Shown here piece after piece: positions 1 through 64,000 of a DNA stretch of 64,000 nucleotides. The stretch's first letter is position 1. The number at the start of each line of letters is the position of its first letter. The position numbers and the translations under genes are program-made. Below the pieces are notes generated by a model. It searched no databases and was not told where the DNA came from. It worked only from the letters and a program-made list of their open reading frames with translations. The stretch covers positions 576,001 to 640,000 of the forward strand of contig OZ244651.1 in the NCBI GenBank assembly GCA_965218695.1. Reading direction: 5' to 3'. The stretch is from Nitrosopumilus sp. GTDB lineage: Archaea; Thermoproteota; Nitrososphaeria; Nitrososphaerales; Nitrosopumilaceae.

Positions 1-434
1 GAGCTTGACTTGCTCCTGTCCAGACACCATAGGTAGATGATCTTCGTGACAGGAACCGGCAGTTTGAATACACCGCCATTGTCCTTCAAGAAAGAATATA
101 GCATCTTCAAGTACATCGAAGATCTACCCTGGTTAGACGCCCCTGGGCCCGCCTTCCAGAATGTCTTGTCTGAATGGAAGGAAACGGTCAAGAGAACCAT
201 CGGCATGTCCGTGCCCACGAACGGATGAGTTCTGATGTCCGAGGTAGAAATACGTTTCAAGGAAATCAGTCCTAGTTTCGATTTACGCGACTACTGCCAC
301 AGGAATCTGCTGTCCAGCATCGTGCCATGCCAGGAATTTCAGGTGCGGAAATCCGACCCGATGAGCTTGCATACCGCAGAATCTTAGCACAACAGTCTAA
401 ACAGCAGCATGCTAGGCTGTTCCCCAGAAGACAC

Positions 435-1675
435 TGGGCCGGACCCCGCTAGAATGAGACCGATCAAATCCGAATGCCTTTTGGAGCAGGGGGTCGAGGG
501 AAGGACATGAGCAAGAGACGTAGTCCCCAGGACAAGGCCAGGATAGTGATGGAGTTTTTTACCACCAATGTGCCAGCTGCCGAATTGTGCCGAAAGCACA
601 ACGTGTCGCCTGCAACCTTCCAAGACTGGAAGGACAAGTTCCTGCAGGGAGGCAGGCAGGCTCTCATAAACAGGGGGGATGCAGCCAAAAACCATTTGGC
701 AGAGGTGGAAAACCTCAAGCGCATAATAGGCGAGATCACCGTAGCCAACGACATTTTAAAAAAAACTTTGGAGGGAACAAAGTGATGAGGATGCAGGCCG
801 TAAGTGACGTAAGCAAGTGCATGAGCCTGAACAGGGCCCTGCAATACTGCGGCATGTCCAAACACTCCTGGTACTACGCCAAGAAGCCAAGAGACGTGGC
901 CATGGACCCGGACGTGGTTGACGTGGTTAGGAAGATAGCCTCCAAGCGCCCCGCGTACGGAACCAGACGCATGGCCGCGCAGGTCGCCAGGGAGACAAAC
1001 GTTCCAACAAATCGCAAGAAAATACAGCGGATATATCACAAAATAGGCTGGATCGAGCCCAAAAAGACTAAAAACGACATCATTCGTGCCTCAAGGCGCA
1101 GGAGGTTCAAGCCCACCGCACCCAACCAGCTGTGGGAGACTGACATAACGTACATCCACTGCGGGGTCGACGGATGGTGCTACTGTTTCAATGTCCTTGA
1201 CGTGTTTACCAGAAAGTGGATGGCGTACATGTTTGACACCACGGCTCCTGCCCACACGGCAGTGCAATCGGTGCTAAAGGCGGTGTCGTCTGCAGGAGAG
1301 ATCTCAAACCTGAGGCTCAGGACCGGCAACGGTTCCCAGTACAGCAGCCGCGAATTCAAAAAGGCCATGCAGGCGCTGGGGATAAAGCACGAGTTCATCT
1401 GGAAGCAGACGCCGGAACAGAACGGACACGTGGAGTCATTCCACGGGACGCTCAAAAGGGAGTACATCTGGCCGCATGAGTTTGCGCGCTTTCAAGATGC
1501 AGAAGTCGTACTTGCAAAGGCCTTTGAGGACTACAACAAGGACAGGATCCACTCGGCTCTGGGGTATCTCACACCCGACGAGTTTATCGGCAAGATGGAG
1601 GTTGGGAATAAATGAGAGGCAGGATCATTCGGAAAAAGATGCAAAAAGTGGTACCAAAAACAAGAGTCCAGATCA
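435..1675 (+). mobile_element. IS3-family insertion sequence (OrfA 507-785 / OrfB to 1615, -1 frameshift); probably inactive
   Basis: TG...CA ends with imperfect IRs (TGGGCCGGACCC / TGATCTGGACTC), near-duplication GACAC/GGCAC. HTH OrfA, A9 slippery tract at 757-765, rve integrase OrfB (WETD...NGSQY...VESFH). The second catalytic Asp reads Gly (LRTGNGSQY). Confidence 0.92.
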
Positions 1676-1892
1676 GGCACCTATAATGGCTGCTGCTATG
1701 GCACCCCATTCTGTGAACTCCAACAACATTAACCCGAATACTGGACTTATGTCCGTTACCAATGGAATGTATTATGCTTCTGCACATGTTGGAAATATTT
1801 ACTCAACGTCTTGTATTACCAATCTAGATCACTGAATTTCTAGGGAAAATCAGGTCCTGCAGGCGGGTTGTCGCCAGACATAATTCTTAATT

Positions 1893-2363
1893 TTATTTTT
1901 TAAATATCTGGAGTATCAAATAGCCAATCCCCAAGGCAATAATTCCCAGCAGTATCATCTCCCACCATTTCAAAGGGCGATCTGGCTTAATGATTTTTGG
2001 CAGACTGCACGTATCTGGAATTGGTGTAATTACAGAGTATTCGATTCCAATTTGTTCCAACAGAACCGGCAATCCATCGTGAGAGGGATAACTGTGTATC
2101 TGATTGGTGTGAGCCCCTGGATACTCAGGGGGAGGTTCTAATTCAGATTCTATTATGCCATTTGGCATAACTTTCAAGTGTATTTGTAACAATTCAAAAA
2201 ATCGATATCGTAATCCAAACACTTGGCCATGGTTTTCTTCTCCAACCGGCTGTTTTTCAAATCCTATTTCTTCCAACCGCGTTCTACAAGTGTCAATGTC
2301 TTCTGGTCTAATCATAAAGCAACGACAATGATGTTCATCAGAACCATTTGTATATTTAGACAA
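1893..2363 (-). CDS. Hypothetical protein with C-terminal membrane anchor
   Basis: 156-aa ORF in AT-richer DNA, hydrophobic C-terminus (WWEMILLGIIALGIGYLILQIF). Confidence 0.7.
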   Translation of the reverse strand: MSKYTNGSDEHHCRCFMIRPEDIDTCRTRLEEIGFEKQPVGEENHGQVFGLRYRFFELLQIHLKVMPNGIIESELEPPPEYPGAHTNQIHSYPSHDGLPVLLEQIGIEYSVITPIPDTCSLPKIIKPDRPLKWWEMILLGIIALGIGYLILQIFKK

Positions 2364-2406
2364 TAGTTAATCGTTTTCATATTGTGTTAATAAATTCACT
2401 GGTTGA

Positions 2407-2578
2407 CCTTGAACACATGCTCAGGCCTCCTTCCAACTCAGGTGTGAATATCCACATAATCATGTATTCTTGTGCCTAAACTGAATTTTAACTTGAGGAT
2501 GTATAACCACGCAGGTTTAGAATGCACATGCTAAATCCCGAAGACGTGAAAAGGTGGGCTAGAAGACTAATCAGTTGA
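2407..2578 (+). pseudogene. Decayed 3' remnant of a dCMP deaminase paralog
   Basis: Frameshifted translation HAGLECT/MLNPEDVKRWARRLI matches the C-terminus AAGIECTMLDPIDVKRWAGLIA of the intact deaminase at 47715-48206. Confidence 0.55.
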
Positions 2579-2812
2579 TCCGCAGTTGAGACATGAGCGA
2601 CGGGGGCTCTTCAAATCGGGTAATCTGGCACGTATTGGTTGGATGGATGTTGGTTGGGATTCACAATTTTGAGTAGAGTCGATTTTCGTCGGTGTATATC
2701 TTGGCATCTTTCGCCTTGTGCTCATCGATATAAGCCCCGTTTTTTGACGAAGATGTGGGCAATGCTTCTTTTTGTACAATATAGCTATATTATACCGTAA
2801 TGTACTGTATGC

Positions 2813-3067
2813 ATGAACTTAGAAATCACGCATGTGCGCAAGGATACCACAAATAGGATATCGCATGTTAAGATTGTTCAGAGAATATTCCCAGTTGGGA
2901 CGGTAGCATCATGGATACGAACAAAACAGCATTATGTTTATACGAAGAAACTTGGAACAGTTGCAACGGTTTATGCTAGAGTACACCCAACAACAAAGAG
3001 AACATTCCTGACTACTGAGCCGGATGGGATTTATGAAAACAACTTAGAGTTCTTGCCTGCATGCTAA
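2813..3067 (+). CDS. DUF3892-like small protein
   Basis: ITHVRKD...ISHVK and C-terminal FLTTEPDGIYENNLEFLPAC match the DUF3892 pattern. Confidence 0.75.
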   Translation: MNLEITHVRKDTTNRISHVKIVQRIFPVGTVASWIRTKQHYVYTKKLGTVATVYARVHPTTKRTFLTTEPDGIYENNLEFLPAC

Positions 3068-3292
3068 ATTTATGGGGCGGGCATAAAAGACAATCTAATC
3101 GGATAGGCAAATTGTGTCCTTTAGTGGTCCGTACCAAGCTTTAGGCGCATTTCCCTTGTAAAATAGGCAACACACACTCGCGGGACGGACCGGCAGTACC
3201 AAGTCCAAGTTGCTAGCGCGTCATGCCCTGTCTATCAGTTTCAGCGCACACCACTTGATCTCAGTAATCCCAGATGTGCCATCTAGCACCTG

Positions 3293-4579
3293 ATGCAAAC
3301 AGATCAATGGGGGCACGCCCAGACGATCCTTATGTACCACCAAAAAGATCGCCTGAGACGCGATATGATGAACAATGGCAAAATATATGAATCTGTTGAG
3401 AAGGTGCTGAGAGAAAGCATCGTGCCGTCCGCCGAGGTCTCCAAAAGGTACAACGCGACATATGGCGCAAGCGACTTTAACGTCGGCATGCTGCATGCCG
3501 CGATGCTTGACACTTCGGTCGGCGGATGCAGCTTCGCCATGAGAGAAATCACGGCGCAGTCCATCGAGAATCCAAGATATTCACGTCATTCTCCAAGCGA
3601 CGAGTGGTTTCGCGATATCCTGTCCAAGACGGACAAGGGTAAGGCGCTTGAGACTTTTAACCAGGCGGTAAGGGCACAGCTGGATGAGCTTTACCTGTTT
3701 GGCAGGCTGCCTGATGTGCTTGATGTGGCCATCGACATGCACCTGATACCGTGCCACAGCAAGAAACTTGGCTCTGACCTGAGAGGCGGAGAGCGCAAGA
3801 GCGGCACCAACAGATTCGAGGCGTACATCACGGCGCAGTGCGTCAACTCCAAATCGCGGCTTATCCTTGCGGCCCTATACGTGGACAAGTCCTCATCCGT
3901 GCACGAATCCCTGCGTGAAATCCTCAATTCGTGCCTAGAAAACGTCTCCGCCGTCGGATCCAGGCTGGGACTGATCCTGGTTGACAGGGGCTTCTTTTCA
4001 GTGAACTCAATATCCGAGATTGAGCGTCTTAGCCTTGAGTACCTGATGCCGTGCACCAGAACCAGTAGGGTGAAAGACTCGCTGCGCAAGTTCGTGGCCA
4101 AAACGCTCGGCCCCATCTCAAAATCCGACATGACGAATTCTGACAAGGCAACGGTTCAGTACCACATGATCATAGCAGAGAAGAAGAGAGTAAGGAAGGA
4201 AAGTGAGGGGGCGAAGAACGGGGACAAGAAGGCAGGTGCGCCGGAAGATCGATACATTGCGTTTGCCACCAATGCCCCGTGGATGGATGTAGAGGAATAT
4301 TCCAAAAGGTGGACCATCGAGACATGCTACAGACTGGTAGAGAATGCCAGGGCAAAATCGTTCGGCAGCAGTAGGCCTGCCCGGCTTTTCTGCTTTCTGT
4401 ACTCGCTGATGCTATTCAATGCGTGGGTGCTGGTAAACGCGCAGCTGGCCAGCTTTCTGAAGCTGCGTGACGGAGTCCTTCCGGTGACGCAGCTGTATAT
4501 GAAAATTGTCACGCTAATAGCAATCTATCGGAATATTACGATTCAGCCCGAGCCACCGCCAGATCCCGTGGCTCCGTGA
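3293..4579 (+). mobile_element. ISH3/IS4-family transposase
   Basis: VAIDMH...VDRGF...RWTIETCYR DDE motifs; a CAGTACC left-end-like motif near 3194. The true start may be about 3365. Confidence 0.88.
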
Positions 4580-4625
4580 GCACATCTGGGATTACTGGAT
4601 CTCCACGTTGCTGTGGTCGTCATAG

Positions 4626-5872
4626 CAGCTAAGCGAAAAGTGCCTCATCTGAGATCAGGTAGGCGGTTTGGACTGGCGTATGAGGAGTGATTCCAACTGC
4701 ACCTTGAACGTGAGCATGGTCATGACACTCTGCCTTTCGGTACCGTCAGAAAGCATTGCCCTGACGATTATCCATTCATTGTACAATGTTAGGGAATAGT
4801 AAAAACACAACATCCGCGATTCCATGTCCGAAATCCGCGTCTTGGCCCTGCACTCCTCGATTTTACCGTACCCGGTCTCTATTCCCCATCTTTTGGCATA
4901 AGCCTCCGTCTTGATTGTGGGGTGGTTTGTTGCAAACCCGATGTACCTCTCTTCTGGAACGTCAGGGTCTTTGGCGTTTTTTCTTTCAGTTATTATCATG
5001 GAATATTCGACGGAGCCCTGGTTGTTCTCAATCACGTTTGTTGAGATCCTTTCCCTCTTTCCTTGTGCAAAATCCTGCAGGGCTTCCACCACGTTGGGCG
5101 TGTTCCTGCACGGCATCAGGTACCTTACGCCGTTTGCCCGCAGCCTGCTTATCGTGTCGACTGAGAAGAATTCCCGGTCAAGCAGCGCCAGGCGGATCCT
5201 GATGCCCATCCCTGCCATGGTCTTGAGGACTGCATCCACGTAATCAGGCACGAATTCGAGCCTTTTGAGGTATGATGCTGCAAGGACCATGCGCATCTTG
5301 TCGTTTACGCACTGGACTGTCATGTAACGCTCAAAATACGTGGTTCCGTTTTTGTATTTGGAACGGGTCAGCTCCCCTCCGGGTGCCCGGTCATAACGCG
5401 GTATGAGGTGCATGTCGATTGCGATGTCCAGTCCTTCTTTTGGGAATTTGCCCAGTTTTTTGAATGTGTCAAGTTGCACTGCCACCATTTCTTCGAATGC
5501 GCGCTGAACCGTGCCCTGCTCCATCCCCTTGATTGCCGATGCATGCCACCTGTCGGAGGGAGCGTCGCAGTGCGTGCGCTTTACCGCGTTTGCGCACCCG
5601 CCTACGGACGAATCCATGGTGGCTCCCCTCAGCATGCCGTGATTTAGATCGTCTGTTCCAAATACCGCATTGTACCTGTTTGACGTGTTGGCGCAGGCAA
5701 GCATGTTTTTCATGCCGCTTGCGACATCTTGATATATTCTTGGATTGTTCAGTAGATCGCGGCCCTGCTTGGTTTTTTGTCTAGACAACAAAAACCATAG
5801 GGCCGTACCCTTATTGATCTGCTTGCATTCTTGTCAGATTTTGCCTAGATCAAAGCACATTTCGCTTAGCTG
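4626..5872 (-). mobile_element. ISH3/IS4-family insertion sequence (transposase 4655-5791)
   Basis: Terminal IRs CAGCTAAGCGAAA(A/T)GTGC at both ends, flanks CATAG/AATAG; AIDMH...LDREF...RWGIETGY motifs. Confidence 0.9.
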
Positions 5873-6024: not shown

Positions 6025-9000
6025 TCACGATTCTATCTGCGACTTTCCGCCGGTCTTTGACACCCTGTAGATTCGGTCCGCGTACGACTCTAGTTCCGCG
6101 TCGTGGGACACCAGTATCACCTGCGTGGCGCCTGCCTCGTCCAGTACCGTCCGGACCTTCTCCAGCTGCGACTTTGAAAAGCCGTCAGTCGGTTCGTCAA
6201 GCATCAGCGCGCCCGACTCCATGCCGGAGTCCTCCCGCACCATCTTGGCCAGTGTCAAGCGGTACGCCAGCGCTATGCTGGTCTTCTCGCCTCCCGACAG
6301 GTTATACACCGACTGGTCGTGGCCTGATTCCGTGATTATCGGGGTAAAGTCGGCGTCTATGCCGGACTCCTTGGCGGGGTCGTCAAGCAGTATGGAGTAG
6401 AACTCCCCGTACAGGCGGTTGAACCTCGCGCGGATGCTCTCCAGTGAACGCTCCTCCATGATGTTGACGGACGGCACGAATATCTTCTCCATCCATTCCC
6501 GGTATCGTCCCAGGCTGGCATGCTTGGCCTTCCAGGACTTGCGATCTTCTATGGAATCCTTGCACTCTGCTATGGCCTCCTGCGCGTTCTTCAGGTTGGT
6601 TCTGGCAGTGGCCAGATCCACATTGACGCTTGACTCCTTTTGGCGCCACGACGCCAGCGTCTCTTCGATTGACTTCATGGTCTCGTCCAGTTTGTCAAAC
6701 GGGGCAAGCTCGGCCCGCTTTGCGGACAATGCTTCCTCCAGGGAATGGAGCCTTTGTTCGTCTGATTTGATTGATTCGGATGCCTTCACCGCCTGCGACT
6801 CCAGAGACATCATCCGTAATTGGGCATAATCACGAGATTGGACGCATTGCAGGACAAATCTGGCTGACTGCATGGAATTGCATGTCAATTCGAACTTGCC
6901 CGATGATCAAAACTATACGTCAGCCGTGTTTTATTCTGATTGCCAATGTCAAAGCATGTCATTATACGACAAATTAGCAAAAAAGCCCAAACTGTTCATC
7001 CGGTGCACTGGACTGACAGTCTCCGAATTTAATTTGGTGGCAGGGCGGCTGGCAAAAAAATACCCCAAGGCAGAGCAAAAGCGACTCGCCAAAAGAAGCA
7101 GGGTGCGCGGCATTGGTGCCGGACGCAGGTGGAAACTGGATCTGAAAAACAGGTTTCTTCTGGTCCTGTTTTATTACAGGACATACGCTACGCAGGATCT
7201 TCTTGCCATGGTGTTTCAGATGGGCCAGGCTAGCGTGTCCCGCAGCATGGGGGCACTGGAGCCGTCGATCCGGCAGTGCGTTCCGCTTCCGTCAAAGATC
7301 TACGCCAACATCAAGGCCACCAAGACGCTTGACGATCTTGAGGAGATCATTCCGGGCCTGACTGCCCTGATTGATGCCTCAGAGCAGCAGATACAACGTC
7401 CCGGACGCAAGGACATGGAACGGTCCCACTACTCGGGCAAGGCACACAGGCACACGTCCAAGATCCAGTACACGTCGGCCACAGATGGCCTCATCATTCA
7501 CAAGACCCGGCATTCCCCGGGCAGGATCCACGACTTTGCAGTATTCAAAAAGAAACACCCGACATTCCCTGACAACCTTTCACGCAAGGACGGGAGCAAG
7601 GACAAGGAAAGGATCAAAGTCAGAGAGATCCTGGACAACGGATACCAGGGGATCAACAAAGAATTTCCTGACCGGGATGCAGTAGTGCCGTACAAGAAGC
7701 AAAAAGGCGCAGAATTGTCCCCCGAGCAGAAGGAATTCAACAAAAAGCACTCAAAGGCACGGGTGTATGTGGAGCACGCCATCCGCAGGGTCAAACGGTT
7801 TCGCATAATGAGCGGTGTCTACCGAAACCGCCTGAAAAAATACGACACCGTCAATGACATCGTCTGCGGATTTGCCAACCTCAGGGTTCTCCTAGTCCGG
7901 GAAGCAACCTGATAGGAGTCAAAAAACCTACACAGTATAGGAAAATATGTACAATTTCTAATTACGGATTATGTCTCAGGGACTCCAAGGCGGCCTTTGC
8001 ATCCTTCAGGTCATGGATGGCATCCTCGTACTCTGCGACGGAGCGGCGCAATCCATCCAGGTCGCCCAGGCGTGACTTGGCCTTCTGCAGCGGCCTTGCC
8101 TTGGATGCCAGCGATTCAAAATCTGCTGTTTTGGTGCTGATTATATCCCCGGTCTCCTCGGCGTCCCTTGCCGCCTGCAGTTGTTCCCGCGCATCCGAAA
8201 TGGTTGACTCCGTCTTGGATATCAACGCGTTTGCCTCCTTGGCCTGCACGGATATCTCATCCAAGTTTGACTTCAAAGACATGATCCTCTTTCCGACCGT
8301 CTTGGCAGCCTCCTTCCCGTCCGTTCCATGCAGTCCCTGCATGCAAAGGGGGCAGGAGTCGTCATGCTCCAAACTTTCAGCATTCTCTTCTAGCATGCGC
8401 ACCTTGCCACGAAGCACGCTGCCGCGCGCCACGAGGTCGTCCCTTGAAGATTTTGCGTCTTCAAGTTCCGCCTGCATCAGGTCCACGCGGACCTGCAACT
8501 CGCCTACGTCCGCGGCATGGTCGGCAATGCCTGCCTGCAGCGACTTGATCTCCGCGTCCAGTGAATCCATCTTGGCAGTCACACGTATCAATTCGTCTGC
8601 GTCTGGCCGCAGCCGTTCCATGGAAACGTCCAGCTGGCGCAGCGTCATGGTGGAGTGAGGCTTTGGAATCGCGCCGGCGTCCAGTTTCTCCTTCAGCGGT
8701 ACCATCGCTGCACGATACCCATCTGCCTCCCTGGTCGCCTTGCCGATGTTCTCCCGAATGCCCTCAATCTGGGATTCCAGCACGTCTGCCTCGCTTGACG
8801 CCTTGTTTTTCGCGTCCCGTTCCTTTTCGGCCTTTGAGTATGCTGCCTCGCACGACCTTACCTCCACTCCTGCCGCCTTGGCGTCTGCATCCAGCAGCGC
8901 TATGTTACCCTTCAAATCCTTGGCCATGTCCTGGTGCGATGCAAGTTTTTCCTCCAACTGGGGCACGTCCTCGAACCGTATGGAATACTCCTTCATGGTG

Positions 9001-10553: not shown

Positions 10554-10627
10554 GGGGTGAATTCACGCGTGGCATAAAAGGCCGGCAGCCGGTTTTAGTC
10601 CTTAAATGCCAAAGCATCCTTCAAACC

Positions 10628-55508: not shown

Positions 55509-55863
55509 GAGCAGCAGCATCAAACCGCATGGGACACGCAGTCAGCGTATGCCATGCACGATGCTTCAAGTGCCCACGATTCCAGGCGTCCAAGGGACGT
55601 TCACCACTTATTTGGACATTAACATGCGTCATAATTCCCAGATGCAGTTGCCGTATCAGGCATTTATGGAAAATTTTGATATGAATTTTTCATTGTCGGT
55701 ATACATGCATAATTCGCGGTACCAATCCACCAACTAATGACGATCCTGTGCGGTGTGACGAATGTGGATTTCAGTGTACTGGTACTGGCCATGAGAACTG
55801 TCATCCAGGCTGATCACAATTCCATTTTTAATTCCCTTTATACCATTTTGGACCAATGCGTAC

Positions 55864-56094: not shown

Positions 56095-56407
56095 GCATTA
56101 CCTGTGCAGTGCTATAATGTGAACGTCGCACCTACTGCAATCCGAGGACAACCTGTCTTCCGGCCTGCCGCAACTGTGGACTGCGTCGAACCATTGATTT
56201 CTGGGACAACAAGACCAAACGGTACGCCCCAGCAGGAATCTTCTCATACGAAGTATCAGCCAATGATCCAGGACAGTGCGGCGAGATGCTGCGGGATCTG
56301 AACCGGCGCCTGAAGAACAAGACACAGAAGTAGTCTCACTCAGTTCAAACACACGGAACAAAAACGGCGAGACTCCTCTTAAAAGGAAAATAATCGGTAA
56401 AGATAAC

Positions 56408-57121
56408 ATGGTAGGTAAACGCATCCTCATAATACCAGACATACACAACGTCTGGCACGTAGCTGAAAAAATAATCAGAAAAGAAAAACCAGACAGGACT
56501 GTATTCCTTGGAGACTATTTTGACGACTTTGGCGATGACTGGCGCGTGGCAAAGAACACCGCAAAATGGCTCGCAGAATCCTTAAGGGATGAAACCAGGA
56601 CGCATCTGATTGGAAACCACGATCTCGGCTACATGGCAAAAAATCCCTATCTGAGATGTTCAGGATACGACGGGGAGAAACACATCGAGATACAAAAAGT
56701 CGGCATTGACTGGAACCTGTTGCAGATGTATTGTTGGGTGGACGGCTGGTTGTGCACGCACGCGGGGCTATCTGACAGTTTTCTGTCGCTGATCAGGAAG
56801 AATCCTGATGATTCCGTGAAAAAGGTATTGGGGTATTCGTGGAACGGTCTTGGCAAAACGTTGACGGACGTCGGATACGACCATCCGTTCTTTCATGTAG
56901 GATACACGCGCAGAGGCGACTTTCCGGTCGGAGGGCCATTGTGGTGCGACTATGATGAATTTGTTGACGTACCTGGAGTGAGACAGATATTCGGACACAC
57001 TAGGAGGCCTTTTGTCAGGCATCATGAAATGGGCAGTGCGGAGCATTATTGCATTGACACGGGACTTGCGCACTATGCCATTGTGGACGGCGGCACCATC
57101 AGCATACTGACTAGGCCTTGA
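56408..57121 (+). CDS. Calcineurin-like metallophosphoesterase
   Basis: PDIH, GDYFD, GNHD, THAG, FGHT motifs. Confidence 0.92.
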   Translation: MVGKRILIIPDIHNVWHVAEKIIRKEKPDRTVFLGDYFDDFGDDWRVAKNTAKWLAESLRDETRTHLIGNHDLGYMAKNPYLRCSGYDGEKHIEIQKVGIDWNLLQMYCWVDGWLCTHAGLSDSFLSLIRKNPDDSVKKVLGYSWNGLGKTLTDVGYDHPFFHVGYTRRGDFPVGGPLWCDYDEFVDVPGVRQIFGHTRRPFVRHHEMGSAEHYCIDTGLAHYAIVDGGTISILTRP

Positions 57122-57195
57122 ATGCCGCCGACATTACCAGAAACGGATTTGAATACGAATGAAAATATTTTATGCTGTGCCTGCTACACGATAGC

Positions 57196-57306
57196 ATGAG
57201 ATGTATATGTAGTGCCAAACAAGGCGGCGGCTTGGAACCCACCCCGGTAATCGTTTCCGGTGAGATGAGTTGTAAAGCATGTGGCGTCGTGTTGACACCA
57301 ACCTAA
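57196..57306 (+). CDS. 36-aa TFB/TFIIB zinc-ribbon-like microprotein (not in ORF track)
   Basis: MRCIC...SGEMSCKACGVVL; TTTTATG box at about 57168-57174. Confidence 0.5.
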   Translation: MRCICSAKQGGGLEPTPVIVSGEMSCKACGVVLTPT

Positions 57307-57393
57307 ACCAAATCATGGTCTTGTCAGGCAGGGCACATTTTTCAAATGCGGTCACGAATTCTGTCCTTATACGGCTCTGTATCATGCAAAACA

Positions 57394-57936
57394 ATGTCCG
57401 AGACGACTGAACAATATATCACGCCGGCCGGCTTGAAGGGCAAGCGCGGCTGGACGGACCAGATGATACGCAAACTGTTAGGTGGGCCAGACAAGGTCGC
57501 GCCCAACCCGCACTACAGGACGGCCGCTCCGATGAGACTGTATCTAGTCGGACGCGTGGAGCAGGCAGAGAAATCAGGGTTGTTTGTAAGGCACGAGCCA
57601 GATCCAAGGAGGCAGAAGGCGGCCGCAAAGGCAGTACAGACCAAGATGCGCAACCTCATGAGGTGGGCCAAATACGTCAGGATCAAGTACGATTTTCCCG
57701 AGTCCGGCAAACTCCGCGGCGACGACAGGCAGAAGGTCAACTACCTGAGGCACGAGTGCACCGCGTACGACGACACGCTGGCCTCCATGTACGGCGTGAC
57801 CGGCCGGCGCGTGGCGTATCCTGTAATCAAGGGCCGCATGCTGGAAAAGATTGCCGGGGAGTTTCCCGAACTGGCAGGCGAGGCGCGCTTGCAGTCTGCA
57901 GGACATCTGGCCGGCTTATATGAAATGCCGGCCTGA
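57394..57936 (+). CDS. Hypothetical phage-like protein upstream of polB
   Basis: RGWT...PD...NPHY..AAPMRLY...VNYLRHE..YD motif; CTTATAC box upstream. Confidence 0.75.
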   Translation: MSETTEQYITPAGLKGKRGWTDQMIRKLLGGPDKVAPNPHYRTAAPMRLYLVGRVEQAEKSGLFVRHEPDPRRQKAAAKAVQTKMRNLMRWAKYVRIKYDFPESGKLRGDDRQKVNYLRHECTAYDDTLASMYGVTGRRVAYPVIKGRMLEKIAGEFPELAGEARLQSAGHLAGLYEMPA

Positions 57937-57965: not shown

Positions 57966-60900
57966 ATGACCGGGCCGCTCATGCTGGTCTCGGCGTCGTA
58001 CGACAGCGCCGACAAGCGCGTCGTGCTCAAGTTCTATGATCCCGCATCGCACAAGATTGTTCTCTGGAAGGACAACACCGGGCACAGACCGTATTGCTAT
58101 TCCAAGCTGTCCGCAGACGAACTGCGCGAAATCAGGAGCATGGACCGCGTGACCGGCATAAGCCGCGTGGTGCTGCATGACCTGGCAAAGGACAAACCCG
58201 TGGGCATGTCAAAGATAACGGCCGCGGATCCGTTTGCCATCATCGGGACGTACGACCAGCCCGGCGTGAAAAACAAGATAGAGGCGTGGGAGGCCGACAT
58301 CCGTTACCACGAGTCGTACCTGTACGACAGGAACCTCATCGTCGGCCGGTATTACAGGATAGAGGACGGGTGCGTCGTGCCGCACTCCATGGAGATATCC
58401 GGCGACGTGCAATCTGCGCTGAAGACGCTGCTGTGGGACAAAATGGACGACGGCAGCGTGGTGGATGCAGACGAGTTCAGGGAGTTCGTCACGTCGTGGG
58501 CCGACCTGCTGAACCAGCCCATCCCGGACATCAGGAGGCTGGCAGTCGACATAGAGGTGGAGTCAGAAGGCGGCAGGATTCCGGATCCCATTATAGCAGA
58601 CAAGAAGATCACCGCCGTCGGGCTCAAGGGAACCGGGCTTGACCGCGTGTTCGTTCTCAGGACGGAAGGCGTGCCGGAGGGCGAAGACGGCCTTGCAGGT
58701 AACGTCGGGGTGGCGTTTTACGACAGCGAAAAAGACATGATACGCGACGCGCTCAGGGTAATGGAATCGTTCCCGTTCGTGCTGACGTACAACGGCGACG
58801 AGTTTGACATGCCGTTTTTGTACAACCGGGCCAAGAGGCTCGGCATCGACGACAAGCAAAACCCGCTGTACATGATGAGGAACTCGGCCACGCTGAAAAA
58901 AGGGGTGCACCTGGACCTGTACCGGGTCATGTCCAACCGCTCGTTTCAGGTGTACGCGTTCAGCCAGGCGTACTCGGACTTTTCGCTTAACAGCGTGTCC
59001 AAGGCGCTTTTGGGCAAGGAGAAAATAGATTACGGGCTGAATTTCGACCAGATGTCACTCTGCCAGACCGCGAACTATTGCTACAACGACTCGCTGCTCA
59101 CGTACGAGCTTACCAGTTTCAACGGCGACATACTGATGAACCTGCTGGTAATCATATCCAGGATCGGCCGCATGCCGATTGACGGCATAGCCCGGATGGG
59201 GGTGTCGCAGTGGATCAAGAGCCTGCTGTATTACGAGCACCGGGTGCGCGGCTGCCTCATACCGAACCGGAAGGACCTGGACGCGCGCTCGCAGGGCGTG
59301 ATATCCGATGCCGTGATCAAGGACAAGAAGTACAAGGGCGGCCTGGTCGTGCAGCCCAAGGAAGGGGTGCATTTCGACGTCGTGGTGATGGACTTTGCCA
59401 GCCTGTATCCGAGCATAATCAAGGTAAGGAACCTGTCGTACGAGACCGTCAGGTGCCCGCACCCGGAGTGCCGCGCCAACGCCATACCGCTGACCAACCA
59501 CTGGGCATGCAAGAAGAGGAACGGCCTGACTGCCATGATAATCGGCTCGCTGCGCGACCTGAGGGTGAACTACTACAAGAGCCTGTCAAGGAACGAGTCG
59601 TTCACCGAAAAGCAGCGGGACCAGTATACCGTGGTGACGCAGGCACTCAAGGTCATACTGAATGCCAGTTACGGCGTGATGGGCGCCGACATATTCCCGC
59701 TGTATTTCCTGCCTGCGGCCGAGGCCACTACTGCCATAGGAAGGCATACCATCCAGGGCAGCATCGAGATTTGCAAGGCACAGGGAGTCGACGTGCTGTA
59801 TGGGGATAGTACGCCCGGGGACACGCCGGTAACATGCGAAAGAAACGGCATTAGGCAAATCATACCGATACGATCTCTGGCACCCAGCACGGTAACACAC
59901 GGCAGGCAGTCACACGCAGCGCTAAAGGTGCTGTCTGATACGGGGTTTGTTGATGTGGCGTATTCATACGTGCACACCGTGAAAAAAACAGGATACAGAA
60001 TAGGGACGAGAAAATCATACGTCGAGGTTACCGATGATCACAGCTTGATAATTGACGGGAAAGAGACGAAACCCAGCCAACTACGAATTGGGGACACAAT
60101 TGACATTTTACCGAACAACATTCGGGTGTTTGACAATGACCGCGTGCTATCAGACGACATGGCATGGCTGTTCGGGTTCTACATATCTGATGGCACGCTT
60201 GTTTGCGAGCGGGGGACCAATATATGGAGAATAGTGAAAAACGATAAGACCAAACTGGAGAAGGCGCAAAAAATAATAGCCAAACACCTAGGGTTCAAAA
60301 CCAAGGTATCACTCTGTCCATCGAGGGACAAACTGCATATGATAACATCTATGGACAAGTCCGTATCTACCATCGCCAAATATTTTGCATACCATTGTTA
60401 TTCCGGCAAGACCAAAATAATACCCGGGTGCATTCTGAATGGCACGAACCGAGTCAAGAACGCGTTTTTGCAGGGGGTGATAGACGGCGACGGACACGTG
60501 GACAAGAAAGACAAGTCAATCACGTTTGGACAAATACACAAGTCCGTGCTGGCAGGATACATCTCAATCATCACTGATTTGGGGCATGATTACTCCTTGA
60601 AGTTCAGGCGCGACAAGCCGAATTTCATATCCGTCCGGATAATCAGGAACAAGCATGACGTCAGGATCAGGCGCGCCAACGCCATAACACTTCTGGAAAA
60701 ATTCATCATAGACGAACCGGTGTATGATTTCTCTACTGCCAATGAGCATTTCCGAGGCGGCCTTGGCAACATTCTACTACACAACACCGACAGCGTCTTT
60801 TTACTGTCTCCGGATGACACACAGGTAAAATCCATAATATCGCAGGCCAAGGCAAAGTTCAAGGTTGATTTGGAGGCCGACAAGGAATACCGCTACTGCG

Positions 60901-61454
60901 TGTTCAGCAACCGCAAGAAGAACTATTTCGGCGTGACGAGGTCAGGAAAGCTGGACGTCAAGGGCCTGACTGGCAAAAAGTCTCACACCCCGCCTTTCAT
61001 CAAACAGGCGTTCAAGGAAATACTCGGCATACTGTCCGGGATCCACACGCCCGACGACTTTGAGGAGGCAAAGAAGAAGATATCGACAAGGATCGCCGAC
61101 TACGGCGGCCGCGTGGTGGCGCGGGAGATACCGCTGCAGGACCTGGCGTTTACTGTCCGGCTGAGCAAGCCGCCTGCCGAATACACCAAGACAATCCCCC
61201 AGCACATCAAGGCCGCGAAACAACTTGACAATGCCGACATGGTGAGGAGCGGCGACCGCATATCGTTTGTCAAGGTCATAGGCAAGATCGGCGTGCGGCC
61301 TGTCGAGAAGGCCAGGCGCGACGAGATCGACACCAGGAAATACATGGCGTTCATGGAGTCCACGCTGGAGCAGATCACGTCGTCGATGGGGCTGGATTTT
61401 GACACCATGCTGCAGAAGCCGAAACAATCAGGCATGGACGAATTTTTCTGGTAA
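57966..61454 (+). CDS. polB: Family B DNA polymerase (PolB1-type) with intein and C-terminal PIP box
   Basis: DIEV, YNGDEFD exonuclease motifs; DFASLYPS, KVILNASYG, YGD|TDS, KKNYFG; QSGMDEFF PIP box. Confidence 0.97.
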   Translation: MTGPLMLVSASYDSADKRVVLKFYDPASHKIVLWKDNTGHRPYCYSKLSADELREIRSMDRVTGISRVVLHDLAKDKPVGMSKITAADPFAIIGTYDQPGVKNKIEAWEADIRYHESYLYDRNLIVGRYYRIEDGCVVPHSMEISGDVQSALKTLLWDKMDDGSVVDADEFREFVTSWADLLNQPIPDIRRLAVDIEVESEGGRIPDPIIADKKITAVGLKGTGLDRVFVLRTEGVPEGEDGLAGNVGVAFYDSEKDMIRDALRVMESFPFVLTYNGDEFDMPFLYNRAKRLGIDDKQNPLYMMRNSATLKKGVHLDLYRVMSNRSFQVYAFSQAYSDFSLNSVSKALLGKEKIDYGLNFDQMSLCQTANYCYNDSLLTYELTSFNGDILMNLLVIISRIGRMPIDGIARMGVSQWIKSLLYYEHRVRGCLIPNRKDLDARSQGVISDAVIKDKKYKGGLVVQPKEGVHFDVVVMDFASLYPSIIKVRNLSYETVRCPHPECRANAIPLTNHWACKKRNGLTAMIIGSLRDLRVNYYKSLSRNESFTEKQRDQYTVVTQALKVILNASYGVMGADIFPLYFLPAAEATTAIGRHTIQGSIEICKAQGVDVLYGDSTPGDTPVTCERNGIRQIIPIRSLAPSTVTHGRQSHAALKVLSDTGFVDVAYSYVHTVKKTGYRIGTRKSYVEVTDDHSLIIDGKETKPSQLRIGDTIDILPNNIRVFDNDRVLSDDMAWLFGFYISDGTLVCERGTNIWRIVKNDKTKLEKAQKIIAKHLGFKTKVSLCPSRDKLHMITSMDKSVSTIAKYFAYHCYSGKTKIIPGCILNGTNRVKNAFLQGVIDGDGHVDKKDKSITFGQIHKSVLAGYISIITDLGHDYSLKFRRDKPNFISVRIIRNKHDVRIRRANAITLLEKFIIDEPVYDFSTANEHFRGGLGNILLHNTDSVFLLSPDDTQVKSIISQAKAKFKVDLEADKEYRYCVFSNRKKNYFGVTRSGKLDVKGLTGKKSHTPPFIKQAFKEILGILSGIHTPDDFEEAKKKISTRIADYGGRVVAREIPLQDLAFTVRLSKPPAEYTKTIPQHIKAAKQLDNADMVRSGDRISFVKVIGKIGVRPVEKARRDEIDTRKYMAFMESTLEQITSSMGLDFDTMLQKPKQSGMDEFFW
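59808..60785 (+). mobile_element. Intein with LAGLIDADG endonuclease in PolB motif C (326 aa)
   Basis: YGD|STPGDT...VTDDHSL...LFGFYISDG...FLQGVIDGDG...ILLHN|TDS. Confidence 0.95.
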
Positions 61455-61816: not shown

Positions 61817-61891
61817 AGCGGGGTGGGGAAGTCAGGTCATCCCGGGGGGCCCATAACCCCCAGGTCGGCGGTTCGAATCCGTCTCCCGCTA
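61817..61891 (+). tRNA. Initiator tRNA-Met(CAT)
   Basis: A1-T72 pair, AGCGGGG/TCCCGCT acceptor stem, GGGGG/CCCCC anticodon stem, loop CCCATAA, GGTTCGAATCC T arm; no intron, no encoded CCA. Confidence 0.95.
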
Positions 61892-62332
61892 CTCCCACAT
61901 TATGTCAGGCTCTGGCCATTCTTCAACCACGCTGGGCATCCTTTTCATCTCTTTATCCAGGTAATCAAACCAAGACACCTTCAGCTCCTTGAGATCCGTG
62001 ATATCTATCACGATGAATGGTATCTTGGCAAGTTTGTAATCGGCGTTCCGCTTGGCCGTCCTTTTCGCGCCAGGCTTGGTGTGGTGGATCGAGCCGTCCA
62101 GCTCTATGACGTACTTGAGGCTGCCGTGCATGTCACGCACCATTATGTCCGGATGGTGCTGCACCGTGCCTTTCAGGTCTGGTTTTGACAGATCCTTGTA
62201 CACGCCGGTTACGGAATAGTCCCACCTTGAGATCAGGATGAAATGCTCCTTGAGTATCTGCTCGCCTGGTATGTTGTGGACGCCTTTGATGTAGGATATC
62301 AGTGAATGCAGCTGCGCGTCGTCTGTCTCCAT
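61889..62332 (-). CDS. Vsr/DUF559-like PD-(D/E)XK endonuclease
   Basis: HPDI...VIELDGSIH...RNADY motif; the stop codon overlaps the tRNA 3' end. Confidence 0.75.
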   Translation of the reverse strand: METDDAQLHSLISYIKGVHNIPGEQILKEHFILISRWDYSVTGVYKDLSKPDLKGTVQHHPDIMVRDMHGSLKYVIELDGSIHHTKPGAKRTAKRNADYKLAKIPFIVIDITDLKELKVSWFDYLDKEMKRMPSVVEEWPEPDIMWE

Positions 62333-63088: not shown

Positions 63089-63277
63089 ATGGAAAAGTGC
63101 CACATATGCCAAAAAGACGCCGCAGACGACGTGGGATGCACCAAGTGCGGGAAATACACGTGCAGGCGCCACAGGGTAGGATGCGACTCGTGCTGGGACA
63201 TGTTCTGTACGAACCATGGCCGGAAATGCGGCGGTGCCTGGTACTGCACGTACCACGCAGACAAGCACGGCAAGTAG
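63089..63277 (+). CDS. 62-aa Cys/His-rich microprotein
   Basis: CHIC, CTKC, CRRH, CDSC, CTNH, CTYH; TTTTTATG box at 63062-63069. Confidence 0.75.
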   Translation: MEKCHICQKDAADDVGCTKCGKYTCRRHRVGCDSCWDMFCTNHGRKCGGAWYCTYHADKHGK

Positions 63278-63344
63278 GATGCCGCCATATCCCATGCATT
63301 TTTTGACGCGCAATGCAGATAAGGTATCCAGACCAATACAACCC

Positions 63345-63488
63345 ATGGCAGAATGCGGACATTGTGGCAAAGAGGCTGCAACCGGACGCGCCTGCGATCA
63401 GTGTTTCCGGGACGGCTGGTACCACGGCTGCGGCAAGTCCAAGCGTGCTGCCGGCAAGATGTTCTGTGATCCATGTCTGGGAAAATAA
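63345..63488 (+). CDS. 47-aa zinc-finger microprotein (array paralog 1)
   Basis: MAECGHC...CDQC...GWYHGC...FCDPC. Confidence 0.7.
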   Translation: MAECGHCGKEAATGRACDQCFRDGWYHGCGKSKRAAGKMFCDPCLGK

Positions 63489-63519
63489 CCGCTTATATCA
63501 TATCCAAATCCAGACTCGC

Positions 63520-63666
63520 ATGGAGAAATGTGTCCGCTGCAAGAAAAAACGCCAGGGCGGCGTGCTGAAGGTATGTGATGGTTGCAGGGCCGCCGGATGG
63601 TGTGCTGACTGCGGGCAAACCAAGGCACCGAGCCAAGGCACGTTCTGCGACACATGTGCTCCATAG
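63520..63666 (+). CDS. 48-aa zinc-finger microprotein (array paralog 2)
   Basis: MEKCVRC...CDGC...GWCADC...FCDTC; CTTATATC box at 63492-63499. Confidence 0.75.
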   Translation: MEKCVRCKKKRQGGVLKVCDGCRAAGWCADCGQTKAPSQGTFCDTCAP

Positions 63667-63723
63667 GCTATTCGTAGGCTATTTGTAGATCTGGTGTTTT
63701 TACGATTTTTGAGTTTTGGGTGC

Positions 63724-63864
63724 ATGAGTTTATGTTGGCACTGCCACAAATACCAATACAGCGGCAACAAGCTCTGCAGGAACTGCCGCAAAGAGGGCTG
63801 GTGTGAGTGCTGCGGGCACGAACGCGCCATACGCGGCACGAAGTGGTGCGTAAAGTGCGCGTGA
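63724..63864 (+). CDS. 46-aa zinc-finger microprotein (array paralog 3; not in ORF track)
   Basis: MSLCWHC...CRNC...GWCECC...WCVKC; TTTTTAC box at about 63697. Confidence 0.75.
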   Translation: MSLCWHCHKYQYSGNKLCRNCRKEGWCECCGHERAIRGTKWCVKCA

Positions 63865-63956
63865 ACCAACTTTCCTCCAAAGATCAGGATTTCAAGCCGT
63901 GAAGCAAGTCTGGATGGACGGATTTGCCTTATACGGTTAGCGTACAATGCCATGTG

Positions 63957-64000
63957 ATGGGGGAAATCGGATGTGTTAGATGCGGCGGGCCAATCGGCAC
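63957..64000 (+). CDS. Start of another CxxC microprotein, cut by the window end
   Basis: MGEIGCVRCGGPIG; CTTATAC box at 63928-63934. Confidence 0.5.
   Translation, partial: MGEIGCVRCGGPIG

What the first reader, a model, noticed from the sequence alone, without database searches (positions are those of the whole stretch)
1..64000. Probable large extrachromosomal element of an ammonia-oxidising archaeon with its own replication, repair and dNTP toolkit
Seen: in 64 kb the only recognisable core genes are polB (with PIP box), PCNA, mre11-rad50, nrdJ, dCMP deaminase and two tRNAs, dispersed among ORFans, methylases, nucleases and IS elements. There are no ribosomal, amo, energy or biosynthetic genes, and mre11-rad50 lacks the herA/nurA partners that usually accompany it in archaeal chromosomes. 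Established: this selective set is typical of large viruses, megaplasmids and Borg-like elements. Inference: a giant plasmid or virus of Nitrosopumilaceae that captured host-type replication genes. I do not recognise a described thaumarchaeal element with this gene set.
Basis: partly seen in the sequence, partly recalled or inferred. Interest (0 to 1): 0.9.

Follow-up and report, generated by a model that had tools for sequence, protein, structure and literature searches.

The report
Integrated conjugative-type island with spare replication genes
The window is not a free plasmid or virus but part of a roughly 175 kb island sitting in the chromosome of an ammonia-oxidising archaeon, built on a broken conjugative-element backbone and carrying fast-evolving second copies of the host's own DNA replication, repair and nucleotide-supply genes.

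Summary
But the window is C1:576001-640000 of a 2.46 Mb contig that also holds 16S rRNA and amoA, so in this assembly it is chromosomal. It lies inside a 175 kb block (C1 479.2-654.1 kb) that is missing at this position in the two closest complete relatives. A second, related 66 kb block lies 45 kb away. Both share a backbone like thaumarchaeal integrative-conjugative elements: a VirB4/TraG-type ATPase (IS-split in both), a TadC/T2SSF protein, TFIIB homologues, a VirB6-like protein, and an integrase-like gene at one border. Every "core" gene in the window is a second, diverged copy (54-73% identical) of a chromosomal gene. PolB and RNR carry inteins that the native copies lack. The extra PolB, RNR and PCNA each group with metagenome or G002 proteins rather than with host orthologues. 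The extra RNR is under purifying selection (dN/dS 0.16) and is 4-6 times more diverged at synonymous sites between G000 and G002 than host genes are. No terminase, Orc1/Cdc6 or MCM was found in the block. Verdict: an integrated, decaying mobile element; a new variant of a known kind.

The parts
587..5791 (.). Three IS transposase genes: IS3-type rve at 587-1615 (+); DDE_Tnp_1 at 3293-4579 (+) and 4655-5791 (-)
   Evidence: Pfam. Multi-copy in the genome.
6025..9536 (-). Third Rad50/SbcC-like ATPase gene, split by an inserted DDE_Tnp_4 IS (6872-7912, +). C-terminal part 6025-6888, N-terminal part 7962-9536.
   Evidence: Pfam AAA_23/SMC_N/SbcC_Walker_B. 30-44% identical to both Rad50 copies.
10370..12538 (+). 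orf722, a polytopic membrane protein that is probably VirB6/TrbL-like (a lead, not shown). Backbone gene with a paralogue in block B.
   Evidence: No Pfam hit. Atlas hits to TrbL/VirB6 clusters at 0.88-0.90. At least 6 hydrophobic segments. 40-48% paralogue at C1 744.6 kb.
13145..15294 (.). ABC-type ATPase (13145-13885, -) and backbone ORF orf375 (14167-15294, +)
   Evidence: Pfam. orf375 is 49% identical to C1 751919-753025 in block B. The G002 island ORF is 49% identical to orf375 and 68% to the block B copy.
16355..18124 (.). Two DNA methyltransferases: N6_N4_Mtase part (16355-17038, +) and D12/Dam-type (17276-18124, -)
   Evidence: Pfam
18417..22077 (+). Extra mre11-rad50 pair, without herA/nurA
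   Evidence: Pfam. 70% (Mre11) and 54% (Rad50) identical to the native pair at C1 52.5-56.2 kb. That native pair lies beside the only NurA match.
22206..22280 (+). tRNA-like fragment, tRNA-Arg(TCT)-like, with an unpaired 5' acceptor strand
   Evidence: Rfam 42.7 bits. Not called by ARAGORN. Its 3' part is 92% identical over 26 nt to a tRNA-Arg of G018.
22313..23050 (+). Extra PCNA (the ORF can start at 22229)
   Evidence: Pfam. 70% identical to the native copy, which is 84-98% identical to congeners. Long branch inside the genus clade. 93% relative P0241.
25037..25711 (+). PrgI/VirB3-like small membrane protein (weak). Backbone gene.
   Evidence: Pfam PrgI E 8e-4, below cut-off. 2 N-terminal TM-like segments. 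68% paralogue in block B.
26906..31055 (+). IS cluster: DDE_3 (26906-27913), IS66 fragment (28168-28782), DDE_Tnp_4 (30093-31055)
   Evidence: Pfam
31580..39069 (.). Defence-like and unknown genes: AAA_33/zeta-like kinase; 607-aa HATPase_c protein; DUF4145; orf441; GmrSD_C nuclease fragment; then an IS630-type DDE_3 transposase (37771-39069)
   Evidence: Pfam
44211..47442 (+). TnpB/Cas12f-like ORF (44211-45560) and Mrr_cat nuclease (46018-47442). The nuclease is a backbone gene.
   Evidence: Pfam. The Mrr-like ORF is 59% identical to C1 758582-759898 in block B.
47715..48263 (-). Extra dCMP deaminase
   Evidence: Pfam. 70% identical to the native copy, which lies directly upstream of the native PolB.
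48518..52210 (+). Extra class II ribonucleotide reductase with ATP-cone and a LAGLIDADG intein
   Evidence: Pfam. 60-62% identical to the native intein-less copy. Clade with G002's P0121, P0122 and P0123. dN/dS 0.16.
53830..55737 (.). IS fragments: DDE_Tnp_4 fragment and a split IS630-type transposase
   Evidence: Pfam. Very high contig depth in all four runs.
56276..57936 (+). Metallophosphoesterase (56276-57121) and a 196-aa ORF conserved in G002's island
   Evidence: Pfam. The 196-aa ORF is 65% identical to G002 1113802-1114488.
57966..61454 (+). Extra family B DNA polymerase with a LAGLIDADG intein inside YGD|TDS and a C-terminal PIP box
   Evidence: Pfam. Extein 72.7% identical to the native copy. 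Clade with P0002 and P0003, which share the intein site. Motifs.
61817..61892 (+). Extra initiator-type tRNA-Met(CAT)
   Evidence: 78% identical to a second one at C1 502300. Each of 12 congeners has one match, and the likely native gene is at C1 355971-356060. The initiator assignment rests on recalled features.

Best explanation
The window is the middle of a large mobile element integrated in the chromosome of a high-GC Nitrosopumilus-like ammonia oxidiser. The element is block A, C1 479.2-654.1 kb. It probably once formed one composite of about 240 kb with block B, C1 698.8-764.5 kb.

Its backbone is of the thaumarchaeal integrative-conjugative (ICE) type. Onto this backbone the element lineage has collected copies of host informational genes: PolB, PCNA, RNase HII, Mre11-Rad50, class II RNR, dCMP deaminase, thymidylate kinase, initiator-type tRNA, eIF-1A and L15e. 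It has also collected methylases and nucleases.

Shown:
- Chromosomal location in this assembly.
- Absence at this site in the closest relatives.
- Paralogy with the native genes.
- Separate element-type clades for PolB, RNR and PCNA.
- Purifying selection on the RNR.
- IS disruption of the conjugation ATPase in both blocks.

Inferred:
- During transfer or episomal phases the element would boost or privatise DNA synthesis: its own PolB tethered to its own PCNA through the PIP box, a dNTP supply from RNR, dCMP deaminase and thymidylate kinase, and end processing by Mre11-Rad50. It would still depend on the host's Orc1/Cdc6 and MCM.
- In this genome it is now immobilised and decaying under IS bombardment.
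- One insertion at the X|Y site followed by one inversion produced the present two-block layout.
For: Location:
- The window is C1:576001-640000 of a 2.46 Mb contig that also holds 16S rRNA and amoA.

Synteny with G002 and G018:
- W ends at 479,185. X is 654.1-698.8 kb and is inverted. Y starts at 764.5 kb.
- In G018, X and Y are 47 bp apart.
- In G002, a roughly 7 kb relic 83-88% identical to block B genes sits at that site.

Backbone:
- AAA_10/TraG/DUF87 ATPase, found only in blocks A and B.
- T2SSF protein (E 1.3e-11).
- TFIIB homologues (E 8.8e-24).
- VirB6-like orf722.
- An integrase-like ORF at block B's right border.
- This matches the ICE hallmarks in Krupovic 2019 (passages).

Paralogy: native copies exist for PolB, dCMP deaminase, PCNA, Mre11, Rad50 and RNR. 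L15e, eIF-1A, RNase HII and thymidylate kinase are also duplicated in the block.

Orthology:
- The native PCNA is 84-98% identical to 19 congeners; the window copy is 67-72%.
- No close second full-length PolB was found in 40 congeners. None of the 21 of 24 congeners with a PCNA match shows a second full-length PCNA.

Trees:
- PCNA is inside the genus clade on a 0.51 branch, against a median of 0.022.
- PolB + P0002 + P0003 form a clade with support 100 and share an intein site.
- RNR + P0121 (G002) + P0122 + P0123 form a clade with support 100; PCNA + P0241 has support 99.

Selection and age:
- Element RNR extein, G000 vs G002: dS 0.90, dN/dS 0.16.
- Host PCNA and PolB: dS 0.14 and 0.21.

G002's related island lies at a different chromosomal site. 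Run X7, from another study, holds pieces about 89-91% identical to the dCMP deaminase, RNR and PolB regions. No terminase match was found genome-wide.
Against: - No integrase was found in block A. The only integrase-like hit in either block is weak: 19.3 bits, below the Pfam cut-off.
- No att repeats were found at the four junctions.
- Only one conjugation ATPase type was found, not the VirB4 + VirD4 pair. It is IS-split in both blocks.
- The VirB6 and VirB3 assignments are leads only.
- No ParB was recognised next to the TFIIB genes. The 907-aa neighbour has no Pfam hit, and the 904-aa neighbour was not scanned.
- No Orc1/Cdc6 or MCM lies in the block, so 'own replication' is partial.
- The whole genome is IS-rich, with 417 of 2,597 ORFs IS-like. 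IS-mediated duplication and rearrangement could therefore create such a region without transfer. The 93% identical L15e copy beside an IS looks like exactly that.
- Block A's two borders lie within about 0.25-2 kb of multi-copy IS elements, and I could not check spanning reads. An IS-mediated misjoin of an episome is not excluded.
Confidence: 0.7

Rival explanations
1. A non-mobile plasticity zone. In an IS-saturated genome, IS-mediated segmental duplications copied host genes into one region. The copies then drifted under relaxed constraint. The conjugation genes are unrelated old debris.
For: - IS-like ORFs make up 417 of 2,597 genome-wide.
- The L15e copy is 93% identical to the native gene and abuts an IS.
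- Block A has no integrase and no att repeats were found.
- The conjugation ATPase is disrupted.
Against: - The extra PolB, RNR and PCNA group with proteins from other assemblies, not with their own genome's copies.
- G002 carries the element-type RNR and backbone relatives at a different chromosomal site.
- Element RNR dS (0.90) is 4-6 times host dS (0.14-0.21), with dN/dS 0.16. That indicates selection, not drift.
- Inteins occur only in the extra copies.
- G018 has an empty site.
Confidence: 0.12
2. One reading: a true extrachromosomal giant plasmid, or one present in both episomal and integrated states. The assembler threaded it into the chromosome through shared IS copies.
For: - Both borders of block A are close to multi-copy IS: ORFs 479421-480827 and 652109-653557.
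- The gene complement resembles that of large autonomous elements.
- Near-identical or related sequence occurs in runs from four studies.
Against: - The B|Y junction has no IS. An integrase-like gene abuts the chromosomal flank, and G002 has a relic at the same site.
- No small contig duplicates block A.
- No Orc1/Cdc6, MCM or other initiator was recognised in the block.
- The X1 contig record 8 runs from window position 55400 for 4.3 kb beyond the window's end with 0 differences. This agrees with the assembly there but does not reach a junction.
Confidence: 0.1
3. A large tailed provirus, or its remnant. PolB, clamp, Mre11/Rad50, RNR and dCMP deaminase together form the classic replication and nucleotide module of big tailed viruses (recalled).
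For: - The gene set itself.
- PHROGs matches to phage SbcC, DNA polymerase, RNR, dCMP deaminase and methyltransferase families.
- A DUF5131 hit somewhere in block A (member not identified).
Against: - No match to terminase families PF03237 or PF03354 anywhere in the genome.
- No capsid, portal or tail family among the 25 PHROGs families shown of 102 matched. This is not exhaustive.
- Conjugation-type genes are present instead.
- The extra genes are of host (Nitrosopumilus-like) type, not viral type.
Confidence: 0.04

Closest known systems
Thaumarchaeal integrative-conjugative elements (Krupovic et al. 2019, PMC6563490; passages read)
   Same: Integrated in AOA chromosomes. Carries a VirB4/TraG-type ATPase, a TadC/T2SSF protein, VirB6/VirB3-like membrane proteins and TFIIB homologues, has IS insertions, and shows an empty site in a close relative.
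   Different: Much larger: 175 kb, or about 240 kb for both blocks, against a reported median of 64 kb. It carries cellular-type PolB, PCNA, Mre11-Rad50, RNR, dCMP deaminase and translation genes. In that paper only NitEve-E6 has a PolB, of casposon type, and PCNA, Rad50 and ribonucleotide reductase have no occurrences in the main text. Here only one ATPase type was found, no ParB was recognised, and the conjugation module is IS-broken.
'Shell' copies of archaeal replication genes (Raymann et al. 2014, PMC3914693; abstract and passages read)
   Same: Extra, fast-evolving, non-syntenic copies of replication genes that sit in integrated elements beside a conserved core copy.
   Different: In the passages I read, that study names extra copies in other lineages (Cdc6/Orc1, MCM, RPA, PolB, PCNA) and none in Thaumarchaeota. 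Here a whole module (PolB + PCNA + RNase HII + repair + dNTP genes) is co-located, derived from within the host's own genus and family, and intein-bearing.
Borgs and jumbo extrachromosomal elements of Methanoperedens (PMC13444090; search listing and start of abstract only; Borg features recalled)
   Same: Very large archaeal elements that accumulate host-like genes. One jumbo element is reported integrated in some chromosomes.
   Different: No evidence here of a free replicon. Only 3 small tandem repeat arrays in 64 kb. A conjugative-type backbone. A different host phylum.
Replication and nucleotide modules of large tailed viruses, T4-like and haloarchaeal (recalled, not tested)
   Same: The same functional set: family B polymerase, clamp, Mre11/Rad50-type nuclease, RNR and dCMP deaminase.
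   Different: No terminase was found. The genes are host-type by sequence.

Membership tests
Thaumarchaeal ICE (features as listed in Krupovic 2019) | [quoted passage not shown] | tested here: inconclusive
   One ATPase per block matches AAA_10, P-loop_TraG and DUF87. It occurs only in blocks A and B and is IS-split in both. No second ATPase type was found.
Thaumarchaeal ICE (features as listed in Krupovic 2019) | Membrane components TadC, VirB6 and VirB3 | tested here: inconclusive
   T2SSF/TadC is met (E 1.3e-11, above cut-off). VirB6-like rests on an atlas lead of 0.88-0.90 plus at least 6 hydrophobic segments. The PrgI/VirB3-like hit is below the Pfam cut-off.
Thaumarchaeal ICE (features as listed in Krupovic 2019) | TFIIB homologue, usually upstream of ParB | tested here: inconclusive
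   TFIIB is met: C1 553809-554630 at E 8.8e-24 and C1 536495-538531. Paralogy indicates a further copy at C1 645399, not scanned against Pfam. ParB was not recognised: the 907-aa neighbour has no Pfam hit and the 904-aa neighbour was not scanned.
Thaumarchaeal ICE (features as listed in Krupovic 2019) | Integrase and att sites; empty site in a relative | tested here: inconclusive
   The empty site is met: in G018, X and Y are 47 bp apart. The integrase-like ORF at block B's border scores 19.3 bits, below cut-off, though its paralogues pass. None is in block A. No att repeats were found.
Extrachromosomal replicon (plasmid, megaplasmid, Borg-like) | Separate molecule with its own contig, ends or circle | tested here: not met
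   The window is inside a 2.46 Mb contig with 16S rRNA and amoA. No small contig duplicates block A. Spanning reads could not be checked.
Extrachromosomal replicon (plasmid, megaplasmid, Borg-like) | Own replication initiator or helicase | tested here: not met
   Cdc6_C has a single match at 1.9997 Mb. MCM has a single strong match at 1.685 Mb. Neither is in the blocks. Other initiator types were not tested.
Tailed provirus (Caudoviricetes) | Terminase large subunit, portal and major capsid protein | tested here: not met
   PF03237 and PF03354 give 0 matches in the genome. No virion family appears among the 25 PHROGs families shown of 102 matched by the 117 ORFs. Capsid and portal were not searched exhaustively.
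'Shell' replication-gene copies (Raymann 2014) | Extra, fast-evolving copy outside the syntenic region, beside a slowly evolving core copy | tested here: met
   The block is absent at this site in G002 and G018.

The most novel reading that the evidence does not exclude
This is the integrated state of a still-circulating lineage of giant (175-240 kb) conjugative-type elements of high-GC Nitrosopumilus-like ammonia oxidisers. Under selection, the lineage keeps a private, host-derived DNA-synthesis kit (PolB-PCNA-RNase HII, Mre11-Rad50, RNR-dCMP deaminase-thymidylate kinase) together with translation-start parts (initiator-type tRNA, eIF-1A). That would make it an ammonia-oxidiser counterpart of Borgs and jumbo elements, moving between hosts and also existing as an episome.
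Probability: 0.2. Interest if true: 0.8.

Novelty: new variant of a known kind. Interest (0 to 1): 0.55.

Why it matters
Ammonia-oxidising archaea drive nitrification, yet their mobile elements are poorly known. The described thaumarchaeal ICEs are smaller and, in the text I could read, are not reported to carry cellular-type polymerase, clamp, Mre11-Rad50 or RNR genes.

An island that gathers a co-located, selected, intein-bearing second set of host-derived replication and dNTP genes does two things. It shows how 'shell' replication genes arise and travel within a lineage. It also offers a natural pair of diverged PolB-PCNA sets in one cell for testing partner specificity.

There is a practical point too. 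Second copies of marker-like genes (PolB, PCNA, L15e, eIF-1A, tRNA) in such islands can mislead binning, contamination estimates and single-gene phylogenies of these archaea.

Tried and rejected
- **att sites.** Short-word BLAST among the four junction regions found no shared repeat.
- **Remote homology of backbone ORFs.** phmmer against PDB sequences gave nothing for the 1000-aa and 1652-aa ORFs and one chance-level hit (E 0.78) for orf722. The atlas gave nothing usable for the 1000-aa ORF, with scores of 0.79 or below.
- **Provirus.** Terminase families PF03237 and PF03354 gave no match. The PHROGs summary shows only 25 of 102 matched families, so it cannot exclude virion genes.
- **Own initiator or helicase.** No extra Cdc6_C or MCM was found.
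- **Borg-like repeats.** There are 3 small arrays in 64 kb.
- **Expression.** No RNA holder was listed.
- **Copy number.** All four runs laid are contigs, so depth cannot be turned into a ratio of element to chromosome, and no contig reached a block junction. Parts of the stretch without cover in X5-X7 carry no weight.
- **Literature.** The search for ammonia-oxidizing archaea + integrative conjugative + PCNA + ribonucleotide reductase (at least 3 of 4 terms) returned 0 papers. Searches listed nothing describing such an element in AOA. Supplementary tables of Krupovic 2019, which hold the per-gene annotation of the ICEs, were closed and may list such genes.
- **Whole-genome copy of G002.** I used targeted stretches instead.
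- **Inversion history.** The two breakpoints do not carry the same IS family today, so the one-insertion-plus-one-inversion model stays an inference.

Full report
**1. What is in the window**

- Family B polymerase at 57966-61454.
- PCNA at 22313-23050.
- Mre11 at 18417-19667 and Rad50 at 19657-22077.
- Ribonucleotide reductase with ATP-cone at 48518-52210.
- dCMP deaminase at 47715-48263.
- Two DNA methylases, Mrr- and GmrSD-type nuclease domains, a TnpB-like ORF, and 12 transposase-type ORFs at about 11 IS loci.

The polymerase keeps DFASLYPS, YGD|TDS and KKNY, and ends in QSGMDEFFW, a PIP-type box.

- Both the polymerase and the reductase carry LAGLIDADG inteins. In the polymerase the intein sits exactly inside YGD|TDS.
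- A third Rad50/SbcC-like gene is split by an IS (6025-9536).

One tRNA-Met(CAT) is solid. The second 'tRNA' (22206-22280) is called by Rfam only and has an unpaired acceptor stem.

**2. Where the window lies**

The window is C1:576001-640000 of a 2,459,686 bp contig in a 2.63 Mb, 9-contig genome with 52.8% GC. The same contig holds the 16S rRNA gene at 1.477 Mb and amoA at 112 kb. The nearest named proteins come from Nitrosopumilus/Nitrosopumilaceae.

So the host assignment holds, but 'extrachromosomal' does not hold in this assembly. None of the eight small contigs duplicates the region. IS load is not special to the window: 417 of 2,597 ORFs genome-wide are IS-like.

**3. The genes are second copies**

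tblastn of the window's proteins against the genome finds a second copy of each:

| Gene | Identity to native copy | Native location and note |
|---|---|---|
| PolB | 73% / 66% over two segments | 1.546 Mb; no intein |
| dCMP deaminase | 70% | directly upstream of native PolB |
| PCNA | 69% | 1.949 Mb |
| Mre11 | 70% | 52.5-56.2 kb |
| Rad50 | 54% | 52.5-56.2 kb |
| RNR | 60-62% | 2.153 Mb; no intein |

The native mre11-rad50 lies beside the genome's only NurA match and a 522-aa ORF in the HerA position.

The native copies are the orthologues:
- Native PCNA is 84-98% identical to 19 congeners, 98% to G002 and 96% to G018. The window copy is 67-72% identical to all of them.
- 21 of 24 congeners had a PCNA match. 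The only two-match row among them (G023) is two fragments at contig ends.
- 38 of 40 congeners had a PolB match. The rows with two matches are contig-end fragments (G020, G024) or 25-30% distant polymerases (G006, G042).
- So no congener searched shows a close second copy.

**4. The island and its borders**

DNA comparison with the two closest complete relatives gives this layout in G000:
- W runs up to 479,185.
- Block A runs 479.2-654.1 kb (175 kb) and contains the whole window.
- X runs 654.1-698.8 kb and is inverted.
- Block B runs 698.8-764.5 kb (66 kb).
- Y starts at 764.5 kb.

In G002 and G018 the order is W-X-Y. In G018, X and Y are 47 bp apart. In G002 about 7 kb lies between them, holding relics 83-88% identical to block B genes plus an integrase-like piece.

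One insertion at the X|Y site followed by one inversion, with breakpoints at W|X and inside the element, explains all four junctions. This is an inference: the breakpoints do not share an IS today, and no att repeats were found.

**5. What kind of element**

Blocks A and B share a collinear, diverged set of genes:
- A conjugation-type ATPase matching AAA_10, P-loop_TraG and DUF87. It is present only in these two blocks and split by an IS in each. Intact homologues in the family have open frames of 596-726 aa, against 508 and 425+243 aa here.
- A T2SSF/TadC protein and TFIIB homologues.
- Large secreted or anchored proteins of 1652 and 1000 aa.
- Inside the window: orf722 (VirB6/TrbL-like by atlas lead, at least 6 hydrophobic segments), orf375, a weak PrgI/VirB3-like ORF, and the Mrr-type nuclease.

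Block B ends, next to Y, in a 608-aa ORF with a weak tyrosine-recombinase match.

These are the hallmarks that Krupovic et al. list for thaumarchaeal ICEs, including 'all encode TFIIB'. The ATPase family occurs in 46 of 151 family genomes and 13 of 24 genera.

No terminase family matched anywhere. No virion family appeared among the PHROGs families shown.

**6. Cargo beyond the window**

A screen of 117 non-IS ORFs across 496-654 kb, followed by individual scans, adds more host-type duplicates in block A:

| Gene | Relation to native copy |
|---|---|
| Ribosomal protein L15e | 93% identical to the native gene |
| eIF-1A | second match elsewhere on C1 |
| RNase HII (part) | 36% to its paralogue |
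| Thymidylate kinase | 54% |
| Prephenate dehydratase fragment | 41% |
| Second initiator-type tRNA-Met at 502,300 | 78% to the window's tRNA |

Each of 12 congeners has a single match to this tRNA. G000's likely native gene is the oddly called one at 355,971.

Orc1/Cdc6 and MCM are single-copy and lie outside the blocks. The kit is therefore partial.

**7. Are the extra genes a travelling lineage?**

- **PolB.** Two metagenome proteins (P0002 at 77%, P0003 at 75%) are closer than any host-type protein. They share the intein site and form a clade with the window copy (SH-aLRT 100). That clade is sister to the host subclade's polymerases.
- **RNR.** P0121 (80%, with intein) is encoded in G002's chromosome at 1.106 Mb. 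P0122 and P0123 are 76% identical, and host types are 60-64%. The four form a clade with support 100.
- **G002's island.** It lies at a different chromosomal site, next to orthologues of G000 222-257 kb. It holds backbone relatives but no extra PolB or PCNA.
- **PCNA.** P0241 is 93% identical and pairs with the window copy at support 99. In the first tree the window PCNA sits inside the genus clade (100/100) on a 0.51 branch, against a median of 0.022.
- **Synonymous divergence.** Between G000 and G002, dS is 0.14 (PCNA) and 0.21 (PolB) for host genes. It is 0.90 for the element RNR extein, with dN/dS 0.16, and 0.5-1.4 for six other shared island genes. The islands are older than the host split, and the reductase is kept by selection.
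- **Other samples.** Contigs of a run from another study (X7) carry pieces about 89-91% identical to the dCMP deaminase, RNR and PolB regions. Two further studies (X5, X6) hold near-identical short contigs at low depth.

**8. Mechanism**

Shown:
- An integrated island on an ICE-type backbone.
- Host-derived, diverged extra genes, at least one of which is under selection.
- Conjugation ATPases broken by IS.

Inferred:
- In its active state the element would supply its own polymerase-clamp pair (PIP box retained), RNase HII, end-processing nuclease and a dNTP pathway (RNR, then dCMP deaminase, then thymidylate kinase), while relying on the host initiator and helicase.
- Its methylases and nucleases would serve in defence or counter-defence.
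- In this genome it is probably immobile and decaying.

**9. Caveats**

- Block A's borders are close to multi-copy IS and I could not inspect spanning reads, so a misjoin or a mixed episomal state remains possible.
- Gene calls come from my own ORF script.
- Several backbone assignments are leads only.

**10. Comparison and verdict**

The closest described systems are the thaumarchaeal ICEs and the 'shell' of extra replication genes from integrative elements. This case differs in three ways:
- Its size.
- A co-located module of cellular-type polymerase, clamp, Mre11-Rad50 and dNTP genes that derives from the host's own lineage.
- Inteins confined to the extra copies.

I rate it a new variant of a known kind.

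Noticed in passing
window 48518-52210 and 57966-61454: Both extra genes (RNR and PolB) carry LAGLIDADG inteins, while the native copies at C1 2.153 Mb and 1.546 Mb have none. G002's element-type RNR also has the intein, but P0122 and P0123 (871 aa) do not. Intein dS between G000 and G002 is 1.64 against 0.90 for the extein.
   Followed up: partly
C1 355971-356060 (outside the window): ARAGORN calls a 90-nt 'tRNA-???' with a four-base anticodon. Part of it is 80% identical to the window's initiator-type tRNA, and G018 and G006 match over the same part. It is probably the native initiator tRNA, with an intron.
   Followed up: partly
window 22206-22280: A tRNA-Arg(TCT)-like sequence between rad50 and PCNA whose 5' acceptor strand cannot pair. 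It is possibly the 3' remnant of a tRNA used as an old attachment site inside the island.
   Followed up: partly
C1 480.9-501.4 kb, 658.0-662.9 kb, 706.4-712.1 kb; G002 1049.8-1062.5 kb: A family of very large ORFs (up to 1,734 aa) with no Pfam hit recurs at the edges of the islands in both genomes, at 46-81% identity. One of them interrupts the otherwise syntenic X segment at 657,977-662,860.
   Followed up: no
C1 567197-568555 (block A, left of the window): eIF-1A and an N-terminally truncated L15e copy (93% identical to the native gene) lie side by side next to an IS. This looks like a recent capture of host translation genes.
   Followed up: partly
Contig C9 5211-5645 and contig C5: The best tyrosine-recombinase match in the genome is on the 39 kb contig C9. 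C5 carries 58-61% paralogues of the first two genes of segment Y. The small contigs may be other mobile elements.
   Followed up: no
window 6025-9536: A third, more distant Rad50/SbcC-like ATPase (30-44% identical to both Rad50s), interrupted by a DDE_Tnp_4 IS, lies just upstream of the VirB6-like gene. No Mre11/SbcD-type partner was recognised among the adjacent ORFs scanned.
   Followed up: no
whole genome: GC is 52.8% in a Nitrosopumilus-like genome, against about 33-34% as I recall for cultured Nitrosopumilus. About 16% of ORFs are IS-like. The closest relatives, G002 and G018, share many of the IS families at 79-100% identity.
   Followed up: no
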